DNA of 20,000 bases from an uncultured virus (IMG/VR IMGVR_UViG_3300042356_001581) (IMGVR_UViG_3300042356_001581); one strand, 5' to 3'; shown: positions 5,593-20,000, counted from the first letter of the stretch. Made by a program: numbers and translations. Notes: generated by a model from the letters alone, not told the origin.

Positions 5593-5811
5593 TTACTTTT
5601 TAAAAGAAAACTTATCTCCTAAAATCTCTAATCTTTGACCTAAAACTTGCAAATACTCATTCATCAATCTTGATTGTTTGTAAAGCAAATCTTTGTTTTG
5701 TCGGTCTAAATCAACAAAAGCCTGTGTACGCATAAAATCATTTAAGGAATTTGTTTTAGTTGCCAATTCTTGCGCTTCAATAAGAAGTCTGTCGTAAAAT
5801 GAATCTCCCAT
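5593..5811 (-). CDS. Cassette 1: small helical phage protein (crAss001_48-like)
   Basis: RL..E..EL......L..F.....F..L.....LL..Q...M..Y..VL..R pattern recalled from that family. Confidence 0.6.
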   Translation of the reverse strand: MGDSFYDRLLIEAQELATKTNSLNDFMRTQAFVDLDRQNKDLLYKQSRLMNEYLQVLGQRLEILGDKFSFKK

Positions 5812-5869
5812 AATATTTGTGTTTGGGTTTTATAACTCCGCCCAGAAGTTTAGTGGAAGCCACATCCGC

Positions 5870-5994
5870 TAACAGCTTGTATAGTTAATGCGGTCTATGG
5901 CTTAATTTATTGTTCAGTTTGCACTTGGATTGTTCGGTCTTGAATGGAATTATTCGGCTTATTTTTCCGCACTAACCATATAAGCGAACCGTTA
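5870..5994 (+). repeat. Hairpin site A1
   Basis: TAAC-agcttgtatagttaatgcgg ... ccgcactaaccatataagc-gaacc-GTTA. Confidence 0.85.
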
Positions 5995-6008
5995 TATACA
6001 ATAAAAAT

Positions 6009-6386
6009 TTACCATCGCTCTTTTTTGAATATAATTTGTTTATCTAATTTTATTTGATGTATGGTGTGAAATGTCCGTTCTTTTACATATTTTTTAAATG
6101 TGTTGAAAACTTCTTCCGATACCATTTTACTTTTCACATAATAAATATATGGACTTTTACCACTCATATCATCTCTCCACATATTAAAACCATATCTTTC
6201 CCCATTAGGAAAATTATGTCTATGTTCGTGAATTAAATTATATTTTTTTGATTTAGCTTTATATGGTTTAAATTTACTAATAGCATCTACCATTAATTTA
6301 ATATTCTCAATATCATTTTCATCCACATCTGATTTAAGATATGTGAAATCACCATCATTTGTATCAACTTTTATATTTATTATCAT
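6009..6386 (-). CDS. Cassette 2: hypothetical protein
   Basis: 125 aa ORF bounded by IR gttatatacaataaaaat / atttttactgtatataac. Confidence 0.7.
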   Translation of the reverse strand: MIINIKVDTNDGDFTYLKSDVDENDIENIKLMVDAISKFKPYKAKSKKYNLIHEHRHNFPNGERYGFNMWRDDMSGKSPYIYYVKSKMVSEEVFNTFKKYVKERTFHTIHQIKLDKQIIFKKERW

Positions 6387-6428
6387 AATATTATTTTAAA
6401 ATTATCCAACGCACATTTTTACTGTATA

Positions 6429-6476
6429 TAACAAAGTGTAAAAAACATTAAAACGATTTTTTACACTCAACCGTTA
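6429..6476 (+). repeat. Hairpin site A2 (shortest, 48 bp)
   Basis: TAAC-aaagtgtaaaaaa ... ttttttacact-caacc-GTTA. Confidence 0.8.
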
Positions 6477-6485
6477 TGTGCAAGG

Positions 6486-7292
6486 CTACGAAACTGCATC
6501 TAAACGACTATTCGTTATTTCAATAGCCATTGGATTAATGTCGCAACCTATAAAATTTCGGTTCAGTTCTTTACAAACTACTGCTGTTGTTCCCGAACCT
6601 AAATAGTAATCTGCAACTGTATCACCTTCATTTGAACTTGCTTTTATTATTCGTTCTATTAATGCTTTTGGCTTTTGGGTTGGGTATTTTGAATACTCTT
6701 TTGAATTGCCTTTAAGTGTGTGTATTACCATCCAATCTTCCATAATTTTACCTCCGTTTTTAGATAAAGGGCTGTCGGCTTTACCCATCATTGAGTTACT
6801 TCCATACTTACCTCTTTCTTTACTACTTTCGGAATAATCTGTTAATACGCTTTGCCAATTAAATGTATAATCTTTAGTTTTTGCGTAAGAAAATATATTA
6901 TCGTGTTTTGCATTAAATCTCCTTTTGTTGTTGTTTGGCATAGTGTAGCACCATATAATTTCATTTACAAAATTATCATACCCAAAAATATCATCCATTA
7001 TCAACCTAATCCAATGGGATATTCTATAATCCATTTGTAAATAGATAGTACCTGTGCTTTTTAATACTCGGTGCATTTCTTTTAATCGTGGTAAATAATG
7101 TGCTTCAATTTCACTTCTAATCGGTTTTAAGTCTTGGTAATCTCCAAAGTTTCTGCCAGTTCCATAAAGAATATCACAATAAATCAAATCTACACTTTCA
7201 TCAGGTTGCGACAAAAGGAGTTCAAGGTTATCAACCGCCCTGCACATAACACGGGTTTGGCAAAATGGCTGTTCAGTAATTCTATCAATCAT
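6486..7292 (-). CDS. Cassette 3: N6-adenine/N4-cytosine DNA methyltransferase (beta class)
   Basis: Motif IV-like CDILYG at the N-terminus, YPTQKP, motif I DYYLGSGTT, FIGCDIN. Confidence 0.88.
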   Translation of the reverse strand: MIDRITEQPFCQTRVMCRAVDNLELLLSQPDESVDLIYCDILYGTGRNFGDYQDLKPIRSEIEAHYLPRLKEMHRVLKSTGTIYLQMDYRISHWIRLIMDDIFGYDNFVNEIIWCYTMPNNNKRRFNAKHDNIFSYAKTKDYTFNWQSVLTDYSESSKERGKYGSNSMMGKADSPLSKNGGKIMEDWMVIHTLKGNSKEYSKYPTQKPKALIERIIKASSNEGDTVADYYLGSGTTAVVCKELNRNFIGCDINPMAIEITNSRLDAVS

Positions 7293-7366
7293 TCGTTTTT
7301 AATTTTAAAGTTTAGTAATTCTATTTAGCTTCGGGTTCAGCCACTTCACCAAGCCCGATAACGTTA
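7247..7366 (+). repeat. Hairpin site A3 (contains start codon of 6486..7292)
   Basis: TAAC-acgggtttggcaaaatggctg ... cagccacttcaccaagcccg-ataac-GTTA. Confidence 0.88.
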
Positions 7367-7597
7367 GGTGTAATGCCACTCCGCCACTTCACTTCTATCA
7401 AAATGTGTTTGACGTGAAAAATGTTTAGTCCACCAAGCAAAGGCACGAAATGAACCTCCCCATAAATGCTCATAATATCCTCGATACCATTTTTCACCTA
7501 CTTTAAATTTTAACTCGTAATATGATGAAGGCACTACACCTAACAGCACATTGCCAAAAGTGGGGGTTATCGTTTTTAAATCAGCTTTTACACTCAT
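7364..7597 (-). CDS. Cassette 4: hypothetical protein
   Basis: 77 aa; stop codon is the TTA of the GTTA core; start lies in hairpin A4. Confidence 0.65.
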   Translation of the reverse strand: MSVKADLKTITPTFGNVLLGVVPSSYYELKFKVGEKWYRGYYEHLWGGSFRAFAWWTKHFSRQTHFDRSEVAEWHYT

Positions 7598-7666
7598 ATC
7601 AAATTTTGTATTTCAATTAAAGTTTAGTGGTATAAAGCCCCACCTTCGGCAATCTGCAAAACGTTA
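7541..7666 (+). repeat. Hairpin site A4
   Basis: TAAC-agcacattgccaaaagtgggg ... ccccaccttcggcaatctgc-aaaac-GTTA. Confidence 0.88.
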
Positions 7667-7681
7667 GCAGTAATATTGTGG

Positions 7682-7921
7682 CTACTTACCAATAGGTCTA
7701 TTGCAAGTTGCACAGATATAACTACCATTCATTAAATAACATTGAGATTGTTGACAGCCACAATACATACTGCTAACATCGGCTATACGCAAGTTTTTTG
7801 CTTCCGTTAGTCGGTTAATAACATTGTTTGCCTCTATCAACATTTCAATCAATTTGTCTTTTTCTACCATTTGATACATCTCTACTTTTTCAGAGTGTGT
7901 CATTTCAATTACTTGCATCAT
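7682..7921 (-). CDS. Cassette 5: small protein with Cys-rich C-terminus
   Basis: 79 aa; CGC...C...CATC at the C-terminus; first ~49 aa encoded within hairpin A5. Confidence 0.6.
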   Translation of the reverse strand: MMQVIEMTHSEKVEMYQMVEKDKLIEMLIEANNVINRLTEAKNLRIADVSSMYCGCQQSQCYLMNGSYICATCNRPIGK

Positions 7922-7981
7922 ATATTTTAATTTTAGTGTTTCAAATTCGCAAAAAACCTGACGTATAGCCGAGAACCGTTA
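7774..7981 (+). repeat. Hairpin site A5 (longest, 208 bp)
   Basis: TAAC-atcggctatacgcaagttttttgc ... gcaaaaaacctgacgtatagccga-gaacc-GTTA. Confidence 0.85.
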
Positions 7982-7984
7982 TGG

Positions 7985-8287
7985 TTAATATTTGTATTCT
8001 GCTATTTTAGAAGCTAATCCCCAACTTTGCAACTTACCACCGTAGTTAGATATAAATCTAAATACATCGCCCATATAAGTAGGTTCAGATGGTGTATAAA
8101 TATAAGTTCCTGCAATAGTTTCTAATCGTAATTTCCAAGTATGATTATCTTTAAAAACTTTCGCATCGAAACCCATACATAGTTTTAATTCTTCTGCAAT
8201 TAAATTACATTTTTCTTCATTAAACATACTAACCATAACACTCGTTTGGCTCAATGCCTTATTTTCGTTTATATCGTTTTTCATCAC
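7985..8287 (-). CDS. Cassette 6: hypothetical protein
   Basis: 100 aa; start (GTG 8287 or ATG 8284) in hairpin A6. Confidence 0.65.
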   Translation of the reverse strand: MMKNDINENKALSQTSVMVSMFNEEKCNLIAEELKLCMGFDAKVFKDNHTWKLRLETIAGTYIYTPSEPTYMGDVFRFISNYGGKLQSWGLASKIAEYKY

Positions 8288-8352
8288 GTTTTATTTTTAA
8301 TTAGATAATTTAGTTTTCATAACTCGGCACTAAGCCAAGCGAGGGAACGTTA
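8236..8352 (+). repeat. Hairpin site A6
   Basis: TAAC-actcgtttggctcaatgcc ... ggcactaagccaagcgag-ggaac-GTTA. Confidence 0.88.
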
Positions 8353-8571
8353 GCAACTATGCTCTAATTTGTATATTTTCTCTATTTCATCTACTCTTAA
8401 TGGGTCACAATATCTACCTCTTTGATAATTAACAACTCTAAATATGTATTTTTCGGTTAATTTATGTCTTTCTTCCCAATTGACTTTATTCCACCAAGCA
8501 ATAGCACAATTGCTAACAGCATTTTGTGGCAATTGCGGGGTTTGGATTTCTTTTTCCATTTTAGTTTTCAA
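8350..8571 (-). CDS. Cassette 7: hypothetical protein (likely ATG at 8559)
   Basis: Stop codon is the TTA of the core; start in hairpin A7. Confidence 0.6.
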   Translation of the reverse strand: MKTKMEKEIQTPQLPQNAVSNCAIAWWNKVNWEERHKLTEKYIFRVVNYQRGRYCDPLRVDEIEKIYKLEHSC

Positions 8572-8643
8572 TTTAAAGATTAGTATTTTTTTGTATGGTA
8601 TGTGTTAATTCGTCCGCAACTAACCACAAGATGCAAAACGTTA
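8514..8643 (+). repeat. Hairpin site A7
   Basis: TAAC-agcattttgtggcaattgcgg ... ccgcaactaaccacaagatgc-aaaac-GTTA. Confidence 0.85.
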
Positions 8644-8647
8644 TGCC

Positions 8648-8947
8648 TTATTTTGAAGAACGAGACGAACCAAAAGTTAAGATACCTGCTCCAAGAACAA
8701 AACCGAAGTTATACCAACCTCCATTGTTATTATAAGCATAAAATGCAATATCATCAGAAAATAAACTACCAATAAATGAAATTGGCGCAACTATTCCGTG
8801 CCATAAACCGCCCCAAAATCCATAAGGAGAACTTGTAATACAATCTTGTACGTGTGGGCTTACATCGGCACAAGAAGTTAAAGAAAGAAAAACAAGGCAT
8901 AACAGCCATTTGGCAAGATTGCGGGTTAATTTTGTGTTTTGAAACAT
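8648..8947 (-). CDS. Cassette 8: putative lipoprotein/membrane protein
   Basis: Lipobox-like LTSC after a hydrophobic stretch; GFWGGLWHG and GWYNFGF hydrophobic segments. Confidence 0.75.
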   Translation of the reverse strand: MFQNTKLTRNLAKWLLCLVFLSLTSCADVSPHVQDCITSSPYGFWGGLWHGIVAPISFIGSLFSDDIAFYAYNNNGGWYNFGFVLGAGILTFGSSRSSK

Positions 8948-9029
8948 AGTTTTTAAATTTAAAGATTAGTAATATTTTGCGTGTTTGGGTCTTGAATCGT
9001 CCGCAACCTCGCCAAGTGGCAGGACGTTA
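8900..9029 (+). repeat. Hairpin site A8
   Basis: TAAC-agccatttggcaagattgcgg ... ccgcaacctcgccaagtggc-aggac-GTTA. Confidence 0.88.
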
Positions 9030-9038
9030 GGCGCAATG

Positions 9039-9215
9039 CTAATCCAAGACACCTGCCAACCAAATTGGACAAAATATAAGCCAGTACAAAAATCGTTCTT
9101 GTAAACTGACTGCTAAGTTGTCTTTACCTATTGTTTTGCAATCATTCCTCCAAATCAAATAGAATGGAATAAAAAGAACTATTTGCAGTAATACACATAT
9201 CAATATTTTGTTCAT
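9039..9215 (-). CDS. Cassette 9: 58 aa two-TM membrane protein (not in the ORF track)
   Basis: Read manually: MNKILICVLLQIVLFIPFYLIWRNDCKTIGKDNLAVSLQERFLYWLIFCPIWLAGVLD*; fills cassette 9026-9249. Confidence 0.7.
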   Translation of the reverse strand: MNKILICVLLQIVLFIPFYLIWRNDCKTIGKDNLAVSLQERFLYWLIFCPIWLAGVLD

Positions 9216-9245
9216 TTTGTTTCAATTTGTGAGAAGCACTGCACC

Positions 9246-9333
9246 TAACAGCACATAGGCAATAGTTGCCAGAAACCTCTCGGTTAATAATTTAATTTAT
9301 CGTAGGCAACCATCGCCTATCTGCAAAACGTTA
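9246..9333 (+). repeat. Hairpin site A9
   Basis: TAAC-agcacataggcaatagttgcc ... ggcaaccatcgcctatctgc-aaaac-GTTA. Confidence 0.88.
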
Positions 9334-9552
9334 TGGTTTATGCTTCGATTGGTTTTCATAAGAACTTATATTTTTGCTCATATTGAAATAAATAATTGTA
9401 AAAACAATTGCTCCAAATGTTACGATTCCCCAATCTCCAATTTTATCAGATGCTTTATATGTAAATAATGCCGTTCCAAACCAACACATAATCGAACACC
9501 ATTTCATTTGTCTTTTAAAGTTTTTCGCTTCTTTAATAAATTCTTCACTCAT
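9331..9552 (-). CDS. Cassette 10: small two-TM membrane protein
   Basis: 73 aa, two hydrophobic helices; stop codon is the TTA of the core. Confidence 0.7.
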   Translation of the reverse strand: MSEEFIKEAKNFKRQMKWCSIMCWFGTALFTYKASDKIGDWGIVTFGAIVFTIIYFNMSKNISSYENQSKHKP

Positions 9553-9583
9553 TACGTTTTCGTTTTATGAACCGCACTAACCA

Positions 9584-9710
9584 TAACAAGTGTTTGGCAA
9601 AAAAGCGGGTTCGGTTATTAATTTAAAATTTGTTTTGTGTCTTTATAATTCAGGCTTAATCGAAGTTTTATGCTTTCTTAATCGCTTCTTCGCCAAGCAC
9701 TCGAACGTTA
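9584..9710 (+). repeat. Hairpin site A10
   Basis: TAAC-aagtgtttggcaaaaaagcg ... cgcttcttcgccaagcact-cgaac-GTTA. Confidence 0.85.
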
Positions 9711-10502
9711 GTGGCAATACTCCGAAGCCCTCCGAACAGCGACATCGTAATATTGTTTTTCCTTTTCTATTCCAATTGATTTGCGATTTAATTTGATACA
9801 AGCCAAGTTTGTTGTACCGCTTCCTGTTGTGTTATCCAATACCATATCACCTTCATTAGTATATGATTTCACAAGCATTTCAAGTAAAGCAAGTGGTTTC
9901 TGTGTTGGGTGTATCGTTCCATCAAGTTTTGTTTTTTGTTTATCTGAAGCAAAAACTTGTACACTTCTTGGGTATCTGTCAGTTTCTCCGCCACCGCTTA
10001 CATCTTGCTTTACTTTTCCATACACTTCTGTTTTATTGCAAACTTCGGCTTTCTTGGTATAGGTATTTACAGGCTTATGTCCTTCTGTTTTTTGTGGATT
10101 AAACTTTGGTGTTTTATTGTAAAATACTAAAATGTTTTCGTGTGCTTTCATAGGCATTTTCTTTGCATTAAAATATCCTGTTGCTTGTGTTTTCTCCCAA
10201 ATCCATTCGTATTTTAACCATTCCAAATTTGAGCAACCAAGCACTTTATCAAATGGTGTTTGTGCAAATAAAATTACCACCCCATTATAATTTAGTATTC
10301 GTTTATATTGTTCCCAAAGTTTATTCAAATCCAAAACAGAATCCCATTTGCAGTTAGTAGTACCATAAGGCAAATCGCAAATAATAGCATCAATTGATTT
10401 ATCCTCAATAAAAGGAAAAACATCGAAACAATCTGCGTTCACAAAAGTACTGCCACTAACACGGGTTTGGCAAAATGGCTGTTCAGTAATTCTATCAATC
10501 AT
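9708..10502 (-). CDS. Cassette 11: N6-adenine/N4-cytosine DNA methyltransferase (beta class)
   Basis: ICDLPYG, YEWIWEK, HPTQKP, LDNTTGSGTT, IGIE. Confidence 0.92.
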   Translation of the reverse strand: MIDRITEQPFCQTRVSGSTFVNADCFDVFPFIEDKSIDAIICDLPYGTTNCKWDSVLDLNKLWEQYKRILNYNGVVILFAQTPFDKVLGCSNLEWLKYEWIWEKTQATGYFNAKKMPMKAHENILVFYNKTPKFNPQKTEGHKPVNTYTKKAEVCNKTEVYGKVKQDVSGGGETDRYPRSVQVFASDKQKTKLDGTIHPTQKPLALLEMLVKSYTNEGDMVLDNTTGSGTTNLACIKLNRKSIGIEKEKQYYDVAVRRASEYCH

Positions 10503-10527
10503 TAGTTTTTAATTTAAAGATTAGTTT
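10457..10527 (+). repeat. Truncated hairpin site A11 (left half, copy of A3)
   Basis: First 47 nt identical to 7247-7293; right arm and GTTA core absent. Confidence 0.75.
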
Positions 10528-10854
10528 TTACTTAGTCGTTATCCGTAACAACAAAATACACCACCCGACTTTATCCGACTTCATAAAATCTTGTATTTCA
10601 GAAATTAGTTGCTCTTTAGTTTCAGTTACAAATTCTTGCCTTCCATCAGGTTGTGGATTTCCATTATTCATTTTGTAGGCAAACCAAATTTTAGCATAAT
10701 ATTCACTACTTTCTTCATCAGGATTTTCCACTATACAAGATTTTATTCTACTATCAAGCGAAGTTATCTCATCAGAAGTAACTGCACCTAACAGTGGTTT
10801 TGACTTATTGCCACATTCGGCTTCATTTAATGATTGTTTTGTACTTGTATTCAT
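10528..10854 (-). CDS. Cassette 12: hypothetical protein
   Basis: 108 aa; start in hairpin A12. Confidence 0.65.
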   Translation of the reverse strand: MNTSTKQSLNEAECGNKSKPLLGAVTSDEITSLDSRIKSCIVENPDEESSEYYAKIWFAYKMNNGNPQPDGRQEFVTETKEQLISEIQDFMKSDKVGWCILLLRITTK

Positions 10855-10917
10855 TGGTTTTTAATTTAAAGATTAGGTCTTATTTTATTGGCAACAAGAC
10901 AAAGCCACCAAACGTTA
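10789..10917 (+). repeat. Hairpin site A12
   Basis: TAAC-agtggttttgacttattgcca ... tggcaacaagacaaagccac-caaac-GTTA. Confidence 0.85.
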
Positions 10918-10926
10918 TGAGCAAGT

Positions 10927-11229
10927 TTACTGACCGTCTTCGTAAAGACTCATTTCAAAACCGTGAGAGTAAAAATCTCCAAGTCCACCCGCATCAATAA
11001 CTATTTTGAAATTATAATCTTCGTGAGAAACTACAATTTGAGTTCCTTCATCATCTTCTATGTTTTCAGTTGGTATTCCAACACATTCTATAAAGTGTTG
11101 CATACTTTGATTATTATCCATACTCATATTATCATTTTCATTAATAATACGATATGATGTTTCTCCTTTTGCAAATTCATCAAACATTTGTGTTATCGAA
11201 TTTGGTATCTCATAAATTTCTGTTTTCAT
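10927..11229 (-). CDS. Cassette 13: acidic hypothetical protein
   Basis: 100 aa ORF; IR gttatgagcaagtt / aacctgctcataac. Confidence 0.7.
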   Translation of the reverse strand: MKTEIYEIPNSITQMFDEFAKGETSYRIINENDNMSMDNNQSMQHFIECVGIPTENIEDDEGTQIVVSHEDYNFKIVIDAGGLGDFYSHGFEMSLYEDGQ

Positions 11230-11263
11230 AATAATATTTTGTTTAAATTACACAACCTGCTCA

Positions 11264-11391
11264 TAACAGCAATTTGGCAATATGTCGGTTTTGGTCTTTA
11301 ATTTAATAGTTGTTTTGTACTTGTAGAAATTCGGTATTTCCGAATGTATTAGCTTCCTTAAACCGACACATCGTCAAGTTGCATAACGTTA
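11264..11391 (+). repeat. Hairpin site A13
   Basis: TAAC-agcaatttggcaatatgtcggttt ... aaaccgacacatcgtcaagttgc-ataac-GTTA. Confidence 0.88.
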
Positions 11392-11400
11392 GTAGCAAGA

Positions 11401-11625
11401 CTACGTTTTATCTTTCAAAGACAAAACCTTGAATGTTGGGTAGCCTTTAGGTATTCCAAAACCAAAACCAATATAAACAGAATGATGTCCCCAACATAAA
11501 CCTATTCCGTAAACACTTACGATTTCTAATATAGTCAATACTCCAAATAAATATGGTGTAATTGCAAAATCTTCTTTATTTAATTTGGTATTTTGATAAC
11601 CTCCTATAATTTTTGGTTTTCTCAT
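11401..11625 (-). CDS. Cassette 14: small hydrophobic hypothetical protein
   Basis: 74 aa ORF filling the cassette. Confidence 0.65.
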   Translation of the reverse strand: MRKPKIIGGYQNTKLNKEDFAITPYLFGVLTILEIVSVYGIGLCWGHHSVYIGFGFGIPKGYPTFKVLSLKDKT

Positions 11626-11662
11626 TTCAATAATATTTAGTTTTAATAATCCGTCCAGCTAC

Positions 11663-11735
11663 TAACACACGTTTGTAGCTAGTGGAGGAATCTACACTTC
11701 CGAATACGCCACCATCTACAAGCGTTGGAAGGTTA
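11663..11735 (+). repeat. Hairpin site A14
   Basis: TAAC-acacgtttgtagctagtgg ... ccaccatctacaagcgt-tggaag-GTTA. Confidence 0.8.
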
Positions 11736-11742
11736 GCAGTAA

Positions 11743-11937
11743 TTATTCCCAATCTTCCTTATCAGCTTGAGTTTCTGCCATTACAGCTATTATTTGCCTT
11801 TCACGTTCTGTAAATTCAAACCAATTAGTTTGCCAATCGTAAGGAACGTAATTTCTCCAATCGTGAACTTTTCCTTTTTCTTCAAACTTTGGATTTTCAA
11901 TATCTATTAATTCTGTAAAATTTTCAAATATGTTCAT
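11743..11937 (-). CDS. Cassette 15: hypothetical protein
   Basis: ATG at 11937 (MNIFENF...) preferred to TTG at 11967; HDWRNYVP motif. Confidence 0.65.
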   Translation of the reverse strand: MNIFENFTELIDIENPKFEEKGKVHDWRNYVPYDWQTNWFEFTERERQIIAVMAETQADKEDWE

Positions 11938-11961
11938 CTCGTTTAGTATTATAACTACTGC

Positions 11962-12087
11962 TAACAACGGTTATACAATAGTTGGGTTAATTGTTTAATT
12001 TAAAGTCTGTTTTGTGTCGAGATAATTTGTGTTAATCGGAAAATTACGGCTATCTTATCCCAACCATCGTATAGCCGTCAAACGTTA
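11962..12087 (+). repeat. Hairpin site A15
   Basis: TAAC-aacggttatacaatagttggg ... cccaaccatcgtatagccgt-caaac-GTTA. Confidence 0.88.
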
Positions 12088-12096
12088 GCAGTAATA

Positions 12097-12993
12097 CTAT
12101 ATTCCATCTCCGAATGAAGTCACTACATTAAAATCTTTTTCTTTTCTTTTTTCTTCCACCCTCTTTAAAGAAATATTAAAATAATCCATATTATTCTCAA
12201 TTCCGATAAAGTTCCTATTTGTGTTTATACAGGCAATTCCTGTTGTCATTGAGCCACCAAACATATCTAAAACAGTTTGATATTCTTTTGTGAAAGTTTT
12301 TATTAAGTTTTCCATTAGTTTTAACGGCTTTTGGGTTTCGTGTAACTTGTCTGAAATATGCGAACTTTCTTCAATTAAATTTGTTTTGTAAATTTCAGAA
12401 GAAAAAGTACCTGTACCATACTTCAAATAACAATCTGTAATAGTTCCACCAATCTTATATGGCTTAAACATATACACAATTGGTTCTACTATTGGTGCTA
12501 AATTACCCAATCTTCTATTATCGCTATAATCTGAATTTCTTTTACCTATTACTTGACCTATCCTTTGTGCTTTAAATGGTGCTTTTTTCTTATTCCAACT
12601 AATTACATCTTTTAATATTAGACCGCTATTTTCTCCTGCAACCGTAAACCTATGTTGATATTGCCTTCCTGTAAAACATAATATTGGAGACGCAGGTTTC
12701 ATAATTCGATAACACTCTTTTAAAAAACTTTCGCAAAATATTTGAAATTCAATACTTATTTGCTTGTCTTTATCACTCCATCCATTTTTAGGCTTACCTC
12801 TACTTTTAAATATTTTACTATTTTGTTGCGCAGGGGAACTCCCTAATAATGCAGTATTGGTATTAGAATGTTTAACATCCCAATCACTAAATGAAATCCC
12901 ATAAGGAATATCTGAAATTATAGCATCAATACTTTCATCTGCTATCAATTTCATTTGTTCTATTGCATCTCCGTATCTTAAATCTATTGTCAT
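12097..12993 (-). CDS. Cassette 16: N6-adenine/N4-cytosine DNA methyltransferase (beta class)
   Basis: ISDIPYG, HETQKP, LDMFGGSMTT, FIGIE. Confidence 0.9.
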   Translation of the reverse strand: MTIDLRYGDAIEQMKLIADESIDAIISDIPYGISFSDWDVKHSNTNTALLGSSPAQQNSKIFKSRGKPKNGWSDKDKQISIEFQIFCESFLKECYRIMKPASPILCFTGRQYQHRFTVAGENSGLILKDVISWNKKKAPFKAQRIGQVIGKRNSDYSDNRRLGNLAPIVEPIVYMFKPYKIGGTITDCYLKYGTGTFSSEIYKTNLIEESSHISDKLHETQKPLKLMENLIKTFTKEYQTVLDMFGGSMTTGIACINTNRNFIGIENNMDYFNISLKRVEEKRKEKDFNVVTSFGDGI

Positions 12994-13087
12994 AATTTTA
13001 TTTTAATATTTTGCCATCGCTTTAAAAAAGAAAAGAAAAAGGTTCAGTTCTCCGAATGAGCATTTGTGGTTAATTACCGTACTACTG

Positions 13088-13148
13088 TAACACCACCTAT
13101 ACGCAAGTTTTGTGAAAAACAAAACCTGACGTATAGCTGTAAACGTTA
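13088..13148 (+). repeat. Hairpin site A16
   Basis: TAAC-accacctatacgcaagttttgt ... acaaaacctgacgtatag-ctgtaaac-GTTA; arms related to A5. Confidence 0.8.
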
Positions 13149-13152
13149 GCCG

Positions 13153-13605
13153 TCATTCTAAAACGACCGCATCCAACGACTTTAATCTGTTTAAAATATA
13201 AAGGTTTGGTCTTATGTATTTATTTTCTCTTCTGAATTGTTCTTTGTCGATTTCTGACAAAAATTTATCATACAAAAAAGTTGCAACCGCACCGCTTCGA
13301 GAAATTCCAGCAGAACAATGAACCATAAATACTGACTTTTCTTTATGTTTTTCGATAAAATCAACTATTTCTTTTAGTTCTTTATCATTTGGTTTTTCAT
13401 ATTTTAACTCACCATTTTCATATAAATCTTCTTCAATATCCCACATTTTAACTTGCAGAAAATTGTCTATTGATTTATCAAATTTTTGCTCGTTATTATC
13501 AATATCGAGTATTGAAATAAAACAAGCATAGTCGTAATATTTAAACTCTTTATCAGTAAAGTTTTTATCGAAAACTAATTTTGGTATTGCTTTTATTTGC
13601 TTCAT
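13153..13605 (-). CDS. Cassette 17: protein-tyrosine/dual-specificity phosphatase-like protein
   Basis: Catalytic HCxxGxxRS motif (VHCSAGISRS) and a C-terminal PN motif. Confidence 0.85.
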   Translation of the reverse strand: MKQIKAIPKLVFDKNFTDKEFKYYDYACFISILDIDNNEQKFDKSIDNFLQVKMWDIEEDLYENGELKYEKPNDKELKEIVDFIEKHKEKSVFMVHCSAGISRSGAVATFLYDKFLSEIDKEQFRRENKYIRPNLYILNRLKSLDAVVLE

Positions 13606-13638
13606 TTTAAATTATTTAGTGGAAAAAGAACGAACGGC

Positions 13639-13756
13639 TAAAAAAGTGTATAAGCAATAACCGTTAGGCGTTTTTAACTATTGCGGTTGTTAATATTTAT
13701 TTTATATTTCTAATCAAGTTTTGTGTTCGGCAACTTCGCCAAGCCTACAAAAGTTA
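13639..13756 (+). repeat. Degenerate hairpin site A17
   Basis: Core reads TAAA instead of TAAC; right end acttcgccaag-cctacaaaa-GTTA does not pair with the left arm. Confidence 0.55.
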
Positions 13757-13972
13757 TAAAGCATTTAAAGCTGTAACTATTTTATTCGCCATTTCATCAC
13801 AATATTCTTCGCCGTTATCATAAACTAAATGGCAAACCACTTTATTCATATCGTTGTCTATAATTGCGAATAAAGCAAAGTCAGCTACAATTACTTTATT
13901 GATAGAAAAACGGCTTATAACAGCGGTTTTTCCGTATTGTGGAATTTGGGTATTTTTTAAAAGCTTAGTCAT
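13754..13972 (-). CDS. Cassette 18: hypothetical protein
   Basis: 72 aa; stop codon is the TTA of the core; start lies in the half-site beginning at TAAC 13918. Confidence 0.65.
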   Translation of the reverse strand: MTKLLKNTQIPQYGKTAVISRFSINKVIVADFALFAIIDNDMNKVVCHLVYDNGEEYCDEMANKIVTALNAL

Positions 13973-13990
13973 AACTTTAAAATTTAATTA

Positions 13991-18889: not shown

Positions 18890-19090
18890 TTATGCAACAG
18901 TTTGCGAAAGAGTAAACCGAGTAAATTTTGTTTCTAAATCTTCTTCAGTTGTGTATTTAAAATTTATAGAATCTAGTAATTTTTTAAAGTTTTCGGCATC
19001 AGAAGACAATAAGCGAATAGTCTTTTTTTCTTGGAATAGCTCAAGCGTTTTACCCCAGCTTGGATTTGGTATTATAGTTGTGATTTTCAT
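18890..19090 (-). CDS. Cassette 19: hypothetical protein
   Basis: 66 aa; stop codon is the TTA of the core. Confidence 0.6.
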   Translation of the reverse strand: MKITTIIPNPSWGKTLELFQEKKTIRLLSSDAENFKKLLDSINFKYTTEEDLETKFTRFTLSQTVA

Positions 19091-19124: not shown

Positions 19125-19251
19125 TAACAATATATTGTAGCAATTAAGGCTTTGGTTATTAATTTATTTATGTTCTTGTACTTGGTTTTATTGGGTCTTT
19201 AATCGAAGCATAAGGCTTTCTTATCCTTAACTGCTACAATAATGAACGTTA
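19125..19251 (+). repeat. Hairpin site A19
   Basis: TAAC-aatatattgtagcaattaagg ... ccttaactgctacaata-atgaac-GTTA. Confidence 0.85.
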
Positions 19252-19263
19252 GAGGTAATTTGT

Positions 19264-19485
19264 TTACGCATCTAACCACCTTTCAATTTCATTTGGTTTA
19301 TATGTTTTACCTGCAAGTGCTACCCAAAATTGGTTATGTTTATTAAATTTTAATGGTTGTCTAACCCCATCAGCATAACATATAAACCAAAGATTTTCGG
19401 TAGGTGTTCTATCGTCACCATTAACCCACAAACTACCGCTAACAGCAGGTTTATTCAATGCGGATTTTTCGTTATTATTGTTCAT
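19264..19485 (-). CDS. Cassette 20: hypothetical protein
   Basis: 73 aa; start in hairpin A20. Confidence 0.65.
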   Translation of the reverse strand: MNNNNEKSALNKPAVSGSLWVNGDDRTPTENLWFICYADGVRQPLKFNKHNQFWVALAGKTYKPNEIERWLDA

Positions 19486-19564
19486 TTCTGCTTCTATTTA
19501 ATTTTTTTATTAGTTTGAAATATTGTGCTTCTAAGTCCACACTAAATAAACCTGCGAACCGTTA
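19440..19564 (+). repeat. Hairpin site A20
   Basis: TAAC-agcaggtttattcaatgcgga ... tccacactaaataaacctgc-gaacc-GTTA. Confidence 0.88.
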
Positions 19565-19573
19565 GCAGTAATA

Positions 19574-20000
19574 CTACATTCCATCTACGAATGAAGTTAC
19601 TACGTTAAATTCTTTTTCTTTTCTTTTTTCTTCCACCCTCTTTTTTGAAGTATTGAAATAGTTTTCATCTAATTCAATACCAATGAAATTACGTTTTGTA
19701 TTCATACAGGCAATTCCAGTTGAGCAACTACCCATAGTCAAATCAACAACTAAATTACCCTCGTTGCTGAAAGTCTTTATCAAATCTTCTAAAAGCAATA
19801 TCGGTTTTTGTGTTGGGTGTAATCCATCATAATCTTTTTTGTATTCCAAAACATTGCTTTTAAACTTACCACCTTCCCATAAGTTGAATGTTGCTCTATA
19901 TTTTAAATCCATTTTTTCTATTTCATCAAATGGTTTCAAAAAATAACCAGTAATGCTTAATTTTTCATAATGTTTTTTTATTGGAAAAGCCCATTGCTTT
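19574..20000 (-). CDS. Cassette 21: DNA methyltransferase, C-terminal part (5' end outside the window)
   Basis: Frame open to the window edge; HPTQKP, VDLTMGSCST, FIGIELD. Confidence 0.88.
   Translation of the reverse strand, partial: KQWAFPIKKHYEKLSITGYFLKPFDEIEKMDLKYRATFNLWEGGKFKSNVLEYKKDYDGLHPTQKPILLLEDLIKTFSNEGNLVVDLTMGSCSTGIACMNTKRNFIGIELDENYFNTSKKRVEEKRKEKEFNVVTSFVDGM

What the first reader, a model, noticed from the sequence alone, without database searches (positions are those of the whole stretch)
7247..10854. Recombination-site hairpins encode the start codon and N-terminus of the cassette gene
Seen: 10 genes start inside the hairpin to their right and read through the core (starts at 7292, 7597, 7921, 8284/8287, 8559/8571, 8947, 10502, 10854, 13972, 19485). 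Starts are usually preceded by an A-rich TTTAAA(A)TTAAAAA-type context in the loop. The MTase 9708..10502 has no alternative ATG before its DLPY motif, so the hairpin start appears required. Two frames cross the core: GTT=Val (RV, DV, SV, AV; 7 genes) and TTA=Leu (LL; 3 genes), and each leader is in frame with its own gene. Inference: the site doubles as a portable translation-initiation and leader module, unlike typical integron cassettes where the ORF starts downstream of the core.
Basis: partly seen in the sequence, partly recalled or inferred. Interest (0 to 1): 0.88.

Follow-up and report, generated by a model that had tools for sequence, protein, structure and literature searches.

The report
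Phage cassettes that start inside hairpins
In this lake-water Flavobacterium-type phage, many small swappable genes begin inside the folded DNA recombination site that travels in front of them, a flipped version of the bacterial integron cassette that I could not find described in print.

Summary
The window is a Flavobacterium-phage-like contig with about 20 attC-like hairpins on the gene (minus) strand. They read TAAC, 4-5 unpaired nt, a ~20-bp stem, a large A-rich loop, the return stem, GTTA. Covariation is strong: 17 of 24 pairs compensatory, 97% paired against 69% in shuffles. Ten claimed genes do start in the loop and read through the 3' arm and core, though two sit in half-sites that lack the 5' arm. 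The same hairpin family fills cassette arrays beside Xer-like recombinases in Bacteroidota chromosomes, where genes lie on the opposite strand (96 opposite, 12 same). In viral contigs they lie on the same strand (60 same, 1 opposite). Units conserved between phages run from one TAAC to the next. So the hairpin belongs to the gene behind it, and recombination does not swap the leader. Even so, the same leader types precede unrelated proteins, and leaderless homologues align only from just past the core. Use of the loop start codons is inferred, not shown. Two genes also have an in-frame ATG in the core. I rate this a new variant of integron-like cassettes.

The parts
5870..5994 (-). Complete hairpin site (125 nt). 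The downstream gene 5593..5811 starts 62 nt after the 3' core.
6429..6476 (-). Short hairpin site (48 nt). Gene 6009..6386 starts 46 nt after the core. By eye it resembles the published P12002L_attC1.
7247..7366 (-). Hairpin site with ATG 7292 in the loop. N6/N4 DNA methylase A (6486..7292) reads through the 3' arm and core. A second in-frame ATG lies in the core at 7247. The TAA of TAAC is the stop of gene 7364..7597.
7541..7666 (-). Hairpin site with ATG 7597 in the loop (gene 7364..7597, Leu frame across the core).
7774..7981 (-). Long hairpin site (208 nt). Its arms resemble those of the short site 13088-13148. ATG 7921 lies 48 codons before the core (gene 7682..7921).
8236..8352 (-). Hairpin site with ATG 8284 (GTG 8287) in the loop (gene 7985..8287). 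An in-frame ATG lies in the core at 8236.
8514..8643 (-). Hairpin site with ATG 8559 in the loop (gene 8350..8559/8571). No in-frame ATG, GTG or TTG at or after the core.
8640..9029 (-). One complete cassette: hairpin 8900-9029 plus the predicted lipoprotein gene 8648..8947 (ATG 8947 in the loop; the positively charged start of the signal peptide is encoded by the 3' arm; no alternative start). The same unit occurs in two other viral contigs with unrelated flanks.
9246..9333 (-). Hairpin site (88 nt). Gene 9039..9215 starts 34 nt after the core.
9584..9710 (-). Hairpin site. Gene 9331..9552 starts 35 nt after the core. The TAA of TAAC is the stop of methylase B.
10457..10542 (-). Half-site with a 5' core remnant, loop, 3' arm and 3' core; the 5' arm is missing. 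ATG 10502 of methylase B (9708..10502) lies in it. The intact version stands in Flavobacterium phage mumin6-1.
10789..10917 (-). Hairpin site with ATG 10854 in the loop (gene 10528..10854). The leader includes a loop motif that is non-coding in sites 11264-11391 and 19125-19251.
11264..11391 (-). Hairpin site. Gene 10927..11229 starts 38 nt after the core.
11663..11735 (-). Short hairpin site with the 5' core TAACC. Gene 11401..11625 starts downstream of the core.
11962..12087 (-). Hairpin site. The gene (ATG 11937, RecX-like PHROG) starts 28 nt after the core.
12084..13148 (-). Cassette: short hairpin 13088-13148 plus methylase C (12097..12993, start 98 nt after the core). It is 91-95% identical to phage mymlan6-1, with homology ending at both 5' cores.
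13575..13666 (-). Decayed site: 5' core and 5' arm, loop with ATG 13605 of a phosphatase-like gene (13153..13605), no clear 3' core.
13918..13990 (-). Half-site with loop, 3' arm and 3' core only. ATG 13972 of gene 13754..13972 lies in it.
19125..19251 (-). Hairpin site. Gene 18890..19090 starts 38 nt after the core.
19440..19564 (-). Hairpin site with ATG 19485 in the loop (gene 19264..19485).

Best explanation
What it is. The region is an integrase-less array of integron-like gene cassettes in an uncultured Flavobacterium-type phage. Each cassette consists of a folding recombination site followed by its own gene.

The site. On the gene strand it reads TAAC, 4-5 unpaired nt, a ~20-bp imperfect stem, a loop of 8 to about 150 nt, the return stem, 0-2 nt, GTTA, plus about 10 further nt that pair with the cassette's own 3' end.

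Relation to bacteria. The sites are homologous to those of chromosomal cassette arrays of Bacteroidota, which lie beside Xer-like tyrosine recombinases. There the gene precedes its site on the other strand. In phages the gene lies on the better-folding strand, so the site sits at the gene's 5' end.

Consequence. In about half of the cassettes the loop has become the translation initiation region (an A-rich tract plus ATG). The 3' arm, core and post-core are then read as the first 14-25 codons, fused in frame to a protein body that begins where leaderless homologues begin. The stop codon lies 0-16 nt before, or in, the next TAAC.

Shown by comparison: the structure, the family, the orientation and the unit boundaries.

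Inferred: that a host Xer-like recombinase moves the cassettes by cutting at the 5' core, and that ribosomes start at the loop ATG.
For: Structure.
- 17 of 24 pairs are compensatory, and 0 of 500 shuffles reach the observed values.
- G.T to A.C mispair ratios on the gene strand are 32:10 (window), 192:59 (viral loci) and 360:147 (bacterial loci).
- The DNA folding energy is lower for the gene strand in 12 of 16 sites.

Family.
- One arm pattern hit more than 135 loci, nearly all Bacteroidota.
- Arrays of near-identical sites occur in F. difficile and other genomes.
- In 3 of 5 genomes searched, the best integron-integrase-like gene lies beside the array. It is Xer-like: 189.5 bits against a cut-off of 265 for TIGR02249.

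Orientation.
- Bacterial loci: 96 opposite, 12 same, 45 ambiguous.
- Viral loci: 49 same, 1 opposite, 35 ambiguous.
- Window: 11 same, 0 opposite, 4 ambiguous.

Unit boundaries.
- The lipoprotein cassette is shared by the window, L018 and L007 from TAAC|G to ...CATAAC, with unrelated flanks.
- blastn matches (HSPs) that cover more than one element end at successive 5' cores in 4 of 4 cases, against L018, L007, L001 and L002.
- The mumin/mymlan replacement and insertion show the same boundaries.

Start in the loop.
- 36 of 55 against 30 of 110.
- Genes 8559 and 8947 have no alternative start, and 7597, 7921, 10854 and 19485 have only distant GTG/TTG/ATG alternatives.
- Half-sites keep the loop, ATG and 3' arm after losing the 5' arm.
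- The n-region of the signal peptide is encoded by the arm.
- The ATG lies in the large loop of the predicted fold.
- GenBank places the mumin6-1 gp006 start at the loop ATG.

Leader is foreign to the protein.
Against: - No recombinase is encoded in the window (39 ORFs), and 4 of 5 related phage records lack PF00589. No recombination event was observed.
[quoted passage not shown] In classical attC sites the extrahelical bases lie opposite it (passages of PMC5027507).
- Many inter-contig matches are hairpin-only and end at both cores. One hairpin (96.7% identical) precedes two different methylases. So exchange or conversion at the 3' core also happens.
- IntI1 did not recombine P12002L_attC1, a site of this look (PMC9892861 section 3.4 and Table S3).
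- Translation from the loop ATG is untested. Genes 7292 and 8284 have an in-frame ATG in the core, which would give a methylase A N-terminus within 2 residues of the P12002L homologue's length. Methylase B has a GTG at codon 21.
- My finder counts G.T as a pair and sets strand by spacer asymmetry, which biases the mispair ratio somewhat.
Confidence: 0.7

Rival explanations
1. The sites have classical polarity, so each hairpin belongs to the cassette upstream of it. Recombination cuts at the 3' core (G|TTA), so a cassette gene receives its start codon and leader from whichever site it lands behind.
For: - Hairpin-only homology ends at the 3' core, and the same hairpin and leader stand before methylases A and B.
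- The same leader types precede different bodies.
- The unpaired bases lie on the AAC arm of the gene strand, which in classical attC marks the top strand.
Against: - All 4 conserved multi-element units end at successive 5' cores, none at successive 3' cores.
- The mumin insertion carries its own upstream hairpin, while the hairpin before the next methylase is unchanged.
- By homology with bacterial arrays, the gene strand of the phage is the strand that is antisense to genes there.
- Three crossing frames occur (18, 14 and 4 cases). Free swapping would often break genes.
Confidence: 0.12
2. The loop ATGs are not used. Translation starts at or downstream of the core, and the upstream open frames are by-products of stop-poor arms.
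For: - In-frame ATGs lie in the core at 7247 and 8236, and GTG or TTG at codons 19-22 in 10502, 7597 and 19485.
- 27% of non-gene frames also have a hairpin ATG open to the core.
- Seven complete sites shown in the table have ordinary downstream starts.
Against: - Genes 8559 and 8947 have no start at or after the core. Genes 7921 and 10854 would lose 51 and 41 codons.
- Enrichment is 36 of 55 against 30 of 110.
- Half-sites retain the loop and ATG.
- The core ATG lies in the stem without an A-rich context.
Confidence: 0.1
3. The hairpins are only RNA or regulatory elements of phage transcripts (processing, stability or translational control), and cassette-like variation arises from ordinary homologous recombination at conserved repeats. 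This would resemble the promoter stem-loops of T4-type phages, which I recall from memory.
For: - The gene strand folds better and carries invariant G.U pairs.
- In viral loci the hairpin polarity matched the flanking coding strand in 60 of 61 clear cases (35 more ambiguous), so it would usually be transcribed.
- Most phages lack a recombinase.
Against: - The same family is antisense to genes in 96 of 108 clear bacterial cases and lies beside a tyrosine recombinase.
- Unit boundaries are sharp at TAAC.
- Each cassette's end is complementary to its own post-core over about 14 nt, which only makes sense in an excised or folded cassette.
- There is no Rfam match.
Confidence: 0.06

Closest known systems
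Integron gene cassettes and attC sites, including integrase-less clusters (CALINs) reported in phages (Qi et al. 2023, PMC9892861: abstract, section 3.4 and supplement part 1 read)
   Same: - One-gene units separated by imperfect hairpins bounded by ..AAC and GTT.. cores.
- The cassette end is complementary to its own start.
- Arrays without an integrase occur in virulent phages, and orphan DNA methylases are frequent cargo. The Polaribacter phage P12002L methylases are 45-52% identical to two in the window.
   Different: - The site lies 5' of its gene, and the gene starts inside it.
- The unpaired bases lie on the AAC arm instead of the extrahelical bases opposite it.
- The R box is extended to about 14 nt.
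- The associated bacterial recombinase is Xer-like and scores below the integron-integrase cut-off.
- The published paper does not mention start codons (0 occurrences) or a reversed layout beyond 'divergent directions'.
rAID-1 clusters of gut Bacteroidales (Ross et al., bioRxiv 10.1101/471110: passages read)
   Same: A XerD-family recombinase followed by co-directional small genes with repetitive intergenic sequences 'reminiscent of integrons'. This matches the layout of the F. difficile array.
   Different: - Those are chromosomal and carry immunity genes.
- Neither phage arrays, hairpin structure, reversed genes nor start codons in the repeats appear in the passages I saw.
- Sequence relatedness to the sites here was not tested.
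ORF-11 / ORF-18 of attI1 and cassettes that lack their own initiation region (review PMC8876359: passages read)
   Same: A recombination site supplies translation signals for a cassette gene.
   Different: - There a short separate ORF in attI helps by translational coupling, and only for the first cassette.
- Here the protein itself starts in the site and is fused in frame, and this can occur at any position in the array.
Promoter-early stem-loops (PeSL) of T4-type phages (recalled from memory, no call)
   Same: Repeated intergenic stem-loops with expression signals that flank small accessory genes and mark shuffling points in phage genomes.
   Different: - As I recall, those act through homologous exchange and carry promoters.
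- They have no relation to bacterial recombinase-linked arrays and no coding through the stem.

Membership tests
Classical integron cassette / attC site | Imperfect palindrome bounded by inverse core RYYYAAC and core GTTRRRY | tested here: inconclusive
   TAAC and GTTA are invariant in 12 of 12 aligned sites. The neighbouring positions do not follow the R/Y rule: among 96 sites the base before TAAC is A or C in 80, and the base after GTTA is T or G in 84.
Classical integron cassette / attC site | Extrahelical bases on the arm opposite the AAC of the recombined (bottom) strand | tested here: not met
   The 4-5 unpaired nt lie next to the AAC on the strand that folds better and at which units end. 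The rule is taken from passages of PMC5027507.
Classical integron cassette / attC site | Mobile unit = one gene plus one site, with boundaries in the core and the cassette end complementary to its own start | tested here: met
Classical integron cassette / attC site | The site lies 3' of its gene, and the gene starts downstream of the preceding core | tested here: not met
   The site lies 5' of its gene. Eleven genes start inside a site or the remnant of one.
Classical integron cassette / attC site | An integron integrase (IntI with its specific extra segment) next to the array | tested here: not met
   There is no recombinase among the 39 window ORFs. In bacterial relatives the neighbour scores 189.5 bits against a cut-off of 265, in two stretches that leave model positions 179-239 unmatched.
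Classical integron cassette / attC site | Recombination by IntI at G|TT | not testable with these tools
   The only published test of a look-alike site (P12002L_attC1 with IntI1) gave no recombinants.
CALIN (cluster of attC sites lacking an integrase) | Two or more sites close together with no integrase nearby | tested here: met
   There are 17 complete sites in 20 kb and no recombinase. Whether IntegronFinder's attC model would score them could not be tested.
Xer-associated cassette arrays of Bacteroidota (rAID-1-like) | Xer-family recombinase followed by co-directional genes separated by repeated sequences | tested here: met
   This is met for the bacterial relatives (F. difficile locus L094). 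The window itself has the repeats but no recombinase. Identity to the B. fragilis recombinase was not tested.
attI1 ORF-11-type translational coupling | A short separate ORF in the site that ends near the cassette start codon | tested here: not met
   The frames that start in the loops continue into the full proteins.

The most novel reading that the evidence does not exclude
Phages of Flavobacteriia keep their own pool of inverted integron-like cassettes, in which the recombinogenic strand is also the mRNA strand. One ~120-nt element would then serve four roles: recombination site, 5' untranslated region, ribosome landing pad (an A-rich loop suited to Shine-Dalgarno-poor Bacteroidota) and N-terminal coding sequence. 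New genes would be made expressible by in-frame fusion to a ready-made site. Cassettes would be moved by the hosts' Xer-like recombinases, a recombinase class outside the classical integron integrases.
Probability: 0.45. Interest if true: 0.85.

Novelty: new variant of a known kind. Interest (0 to 1): 0.7.

Why it matters
- Integron cassettes are usually described as promoterless genes followed by their site, with expression depending on position in the array. Here every cassette would bring its own initiation signals inside the recombination site, so it could be expressed wherever it lands in a phage operon.
- It is an unusually clear case of DNA under three constraints at once: a fold, a recombinase target and a reading frame.
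- It points to a gene-exchange system shared by Bacteroidota and their phages. The phage cargo seen here and in relatives is rich in orphan DNA methylases, which are often anti-restriction genes. The associated recombinase scores below the curated integron-integrase cut-off, and published IntegronFinder surveys report few integrons in Bacteroidetes.
- Cultured relatives exist (Muminvirus phages on Flavobacterium sp. LMO6/LMO9), so the start sites and the recombination can be tested directly.

Tried and rejected
- Whole-genome searches were not possible because no genome is held for this window.
- A relative search with the AAA ATPase in viral contigs found nothing.
- My first hairpin finder was too lenient: shuffles gave 0-13 hits. 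I tightened it by fixing the spacer ranges (0-2 hits per shuffled locus).
- I first thought that complementarity between a cassette's end and the post-core would show which hairpin belongs to which gene. Both models predict it, so I dropped it as a discriminator.
They say nothing about expression.
- There were no Rfam families and no tRNAs in the window.
- I did not scan for Bacteroidota promoter motifs in the loops, because the available scanner covers sigma-70 types only.
- I did not use structure prediction, complex prediction or the protein atlas, since no claim here depends on them.
- Literature searches for a description of starts inside attC sites or reversed phage cassettes found none. 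The library is incomplete and the searches match exact words only.

Full report
WHAT THE WINDOW IS

The window has 31% G+C, and all credible genes lie on the minus strand.

Pfam and PHROG matches point to a phage. They include:
- a DnaQ-type exonuclease;
- DUF932;
- a crAss001_48-like protein;
- an AAA ATPase/protease-like protein;
- four N6/N4 DNA methylases.

Megablast finds only the methylase cassettes, at 82-94% identity, in Flavobacterium phages of the genus Muminvirus. No recombinase is among the 39 ORFs scanned. The stretch 5800-13800 is held almost whole by 18 lake-water metagenome runs.

THE HAIRPINS

Between the small genes at 5.8-13.7 kb and 19.1-19.6 kb lie 17 complete hairpins, two half-sites and one decayed site.

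On the gene strand each complete hairpin has this layout:
- TAAC;
- 4-5 unpaired nt, usually starting with G;
- a stem of 4 bp, a 1x1 mismatch and about 15 bp;
- a loop;
- the return stem;
- 0-2 nt;
- GTTA.

Twelve sites of similar length were aligned:
- 24 consensus pairs are predicted, 17 with changes on both sides.
- 97.2% of cells are paired, against 68.6% in shuffles (0 of 500 shuffles reach the observed value) and 34-46% when partners are slid.
- Two G.U pairs are invariant in 12 of 12.

The structure is therefore under selection. No Rfam family matches.

- Eight of the ten named starts lie in the loops of complete hairpins and stay open through the 3' arm and core: 7292, 7597, 7921, 8284, 8559, 8947, 10854 and 19485.
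- The other two, 10502 and 13972, lie in half-sites that have the loop, 3' arm and core but no 5' arm.
- The site at 13605 is a further, decayed case.
- The frames (Val 7, Leu 3) and the A-rich contexts are as stated.
- Seven complete sites shown in the table have ordinary starts 28-98 nt past the core.

THE FAMILY

The same hairpins stand in the cultured phages mumin6-1 and mymlan6-1. In mumin6-1, GenBank places the start of gp006 at the loop ATG.

A loop motif found 29 viral loci, many with arrays; one has 15 sites.

These include arrays of near-identical sites in F. difficile, Arundinibacter and others.

In 3 of the 5 genomes searched, the best match to the integron-integrase model lies beside the array. 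The F. difficile protein is Xer-like:
- NF040815 212.7 bits (cut-off 220);
- TIGR02249 189.5 bits (cut-off 265), in two stretches that leave model positions 179-239 unmatched;
- the best solved relatives are an archaeal XerA-like protein and V. cholerae IntI4, with similar scores.

Four of 5 phage records with arrays have no tyrosine recombinase.

WHICH GENE DOES A HAIRPIN BELONG TO?

The spacer asymmetry defines a polarity for each hairpin, and I compared it with the flanking coding strand. Non-redundant counts (Fisher p 2e-32, optimistic because the sites are related):

| Source | Coding strand opposite | Same | Ambiguous |
|---|---|---|---|
| Bacterial loci | 96 | 12 | 45 |
| Viral loci | 1 | 49 | 35 |
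| Window | 0 | 11 | 4 |

In F. difficile each gene is followed by its site, and the recombinase lies upstream in the same direction. This is the layout reported for rAID-1 clusters (passages of 10.1101/471110).

Phage cassettes are therefore flipped: the gene lies on the strand that is antisense to genes in bacteria. That strand also folds better. The G.T to A.C ratios are 32:10, 192:59 and 360:147 (with some detection bias). The DNA folding energy is lower in 12 of 16 sites.

Conserved units confirm this:
- The lipoprotein cassette is shared by the window and two viral contigs exactly from TAAC|G to ...CATAAC, with unrelated flanks.
- All four multi-element blastn matches (HSPs) end at successive 5' cores.
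- In mumin versus mymlan, a replaced methylase and an inserted gene each carry their own upstream hairpin.

MODULARITY IS STILL REAL AT THE EVOLUTIONARY SCALE

Similar hairpins and leaders precede unrelated bodies:
- one leader type before four different bodies;
- another type before four different bodies;
- the methylase A/B pair in the window, with 87% identity over 82 nt ending at the core.

Many inter-contig matches are hairpin-only and end at both cores. This could reflect the building of cassettes from a limited stock of sites, conversion between sites, or some exchange at the 3' core. I cannot tell which.

IS THE LOOP ATG USED?

For:
- An in-frame hairpin ATG open to the core occurs in 36 of 55 gene frames, against 30 of 110 other frames and 82 of 357 frames of bacterial sites.
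- Genes 8559 and 8947 have no start at or after the core. Four others would lose 18-51 codons.
- The predicted lipoprotein needs the arm-encoded basic residues before its hydrophobic core and lipobox.
- Half-sites keep the loop and ATG.
- In predicted folds the ATG and its A-rich upstream tract lie in the big loop.

The leader is foreign to the proteins:
- P12002L methylases align from window residues 18 and 23 to their residues 5 and 8.
- Of the 150 best library hits to methylase B, the match starts at residues 18-24 in 106, at 14-17 in 15, at 13 or below in 8 (only one at residue 1, and that protein has the same leader), and later in 21 (my count from the table).

Against:
- Nothing here measures translation.
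- Genes 7292 and 8284 have an in-frame ATG within the core.
- Methylase B has a GTG at codon 21.

That A-rich tracts such as TAAAA serve as ribosome-binding signals in Flavobacterium is recalled knowledge, not checked by any search.

MECHANISM PROPOSED

Steps inferred:
- A host Xer-like recombinase acts on the folded gene-strand hairpin and exchanges strands at TAA|C.
- This moves units made of hairpin plus gene.
- In phage operons the hairpin is transcribed, and its open loop offers an unstructured A-rich landing site.
- Fusing the body in frame to the site removes the spacer and places the start where it is accessible.

COMPARISON WITH PRINT

- Phage CALINs with methylase cargo are published (PMC9892861; abstract, section 3.4 and supplement part 1 read). 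That paper includes a P12002L site of this look, which IntI1 failed to recombine.
- IntegronFinder surveys report few integrons in Bacteroidetes (passages of PMC9024848).
- Translational help from attI1 is known (passages of PMC8876359).
- I found no description of genes starting inside attC-type sites, or of inverted phage cassettes.
- The Muminvirus paper (PMC7077304) was seen only in search listings.

EARLIER NOTES OF THIS SCAN

Earlier AI notes on other genomes reached the same reading. I treated them as leads. The orientation, the boundaries and the recombinase were tested independently here.

LIMITS

- No genome is held for the window.
- My hairpin finder is pattern-based.
- The statistical tests treat related sites as independent.

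Noticed in passing
L094:1-14617 (F. difficile contig), also L050, L084, L075: These are chromosomal arrays of 4-11 near-identical ~122-nt sites of the same family. The genes lie on the opposite strand. In F. difficile and two other genomes (not L075's) a Xer-like recombinase lies upstream in the same direction. It scores below the integron-integrase cut-off, and published IntegronFinder surveys report few integrons in Bacteroidetes.
   Followed up: partly
window 10457-10542 and 13918-13990: Both are half-sites: the 5' arm is deleted but the loop, ATG, 3' arm and core are kept. They look like cassettes fused to their upstream neighbour and no longer able to fold.
   Followed up: partly
window 7774-7981 versus 13088-13148: Two sites have nearly the same arms, but one has about 145 extra nt in its loop. 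That insert encodes the first 48 residues of a 79-aa Cys-rich protein.
   Followed up: no
window 6486-7292, 9708-10502, 12097-12993, 19574-20000: One 20-kb stretch holds four N6/N4 DNA methylase genes of different subfamilies, each a cassette. The 3' ends at 12080-12183 and 19557-19660 are 89% identical, and the identity stops at the 5' core.
   Followed up: partly
alignment A1, columns 5/128 and 24/114: Two G.U (G.T) pairs are invariant in 12 of 12 sites, and a 1x1 mismatch sits after the fourth stem pair. On the other strand these would be A.C mismatches. They may be recognition features.
   Followed up: no
pre-core and post-core of all sites: The 10 nt before TAAC of one site and the 10 nt after GTTA of the preceding site are inverted repeats. 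They contain a conserved T.G position (T in 89 of 96 sites, G in 73 of 96).
   Followed up: partly
L026 (viral contig of 430 kb): A jumbo-sized viral record with direct terminal repeats carries an array of at least six such sites and has no tyrosine recombinase.
   Followed up: no
window 13153-13605: A dual-specificity phosphatase-like gene sits as a cassette behind a decayed site.
   Followed up: no
window 10822-10862, 11298-11338, 19159-19199, 5902-5942: A loop motif is shared by four sites. It is translated as part of the leader in one site (10854) and is non-coding in the other three.
   Followed up: partly
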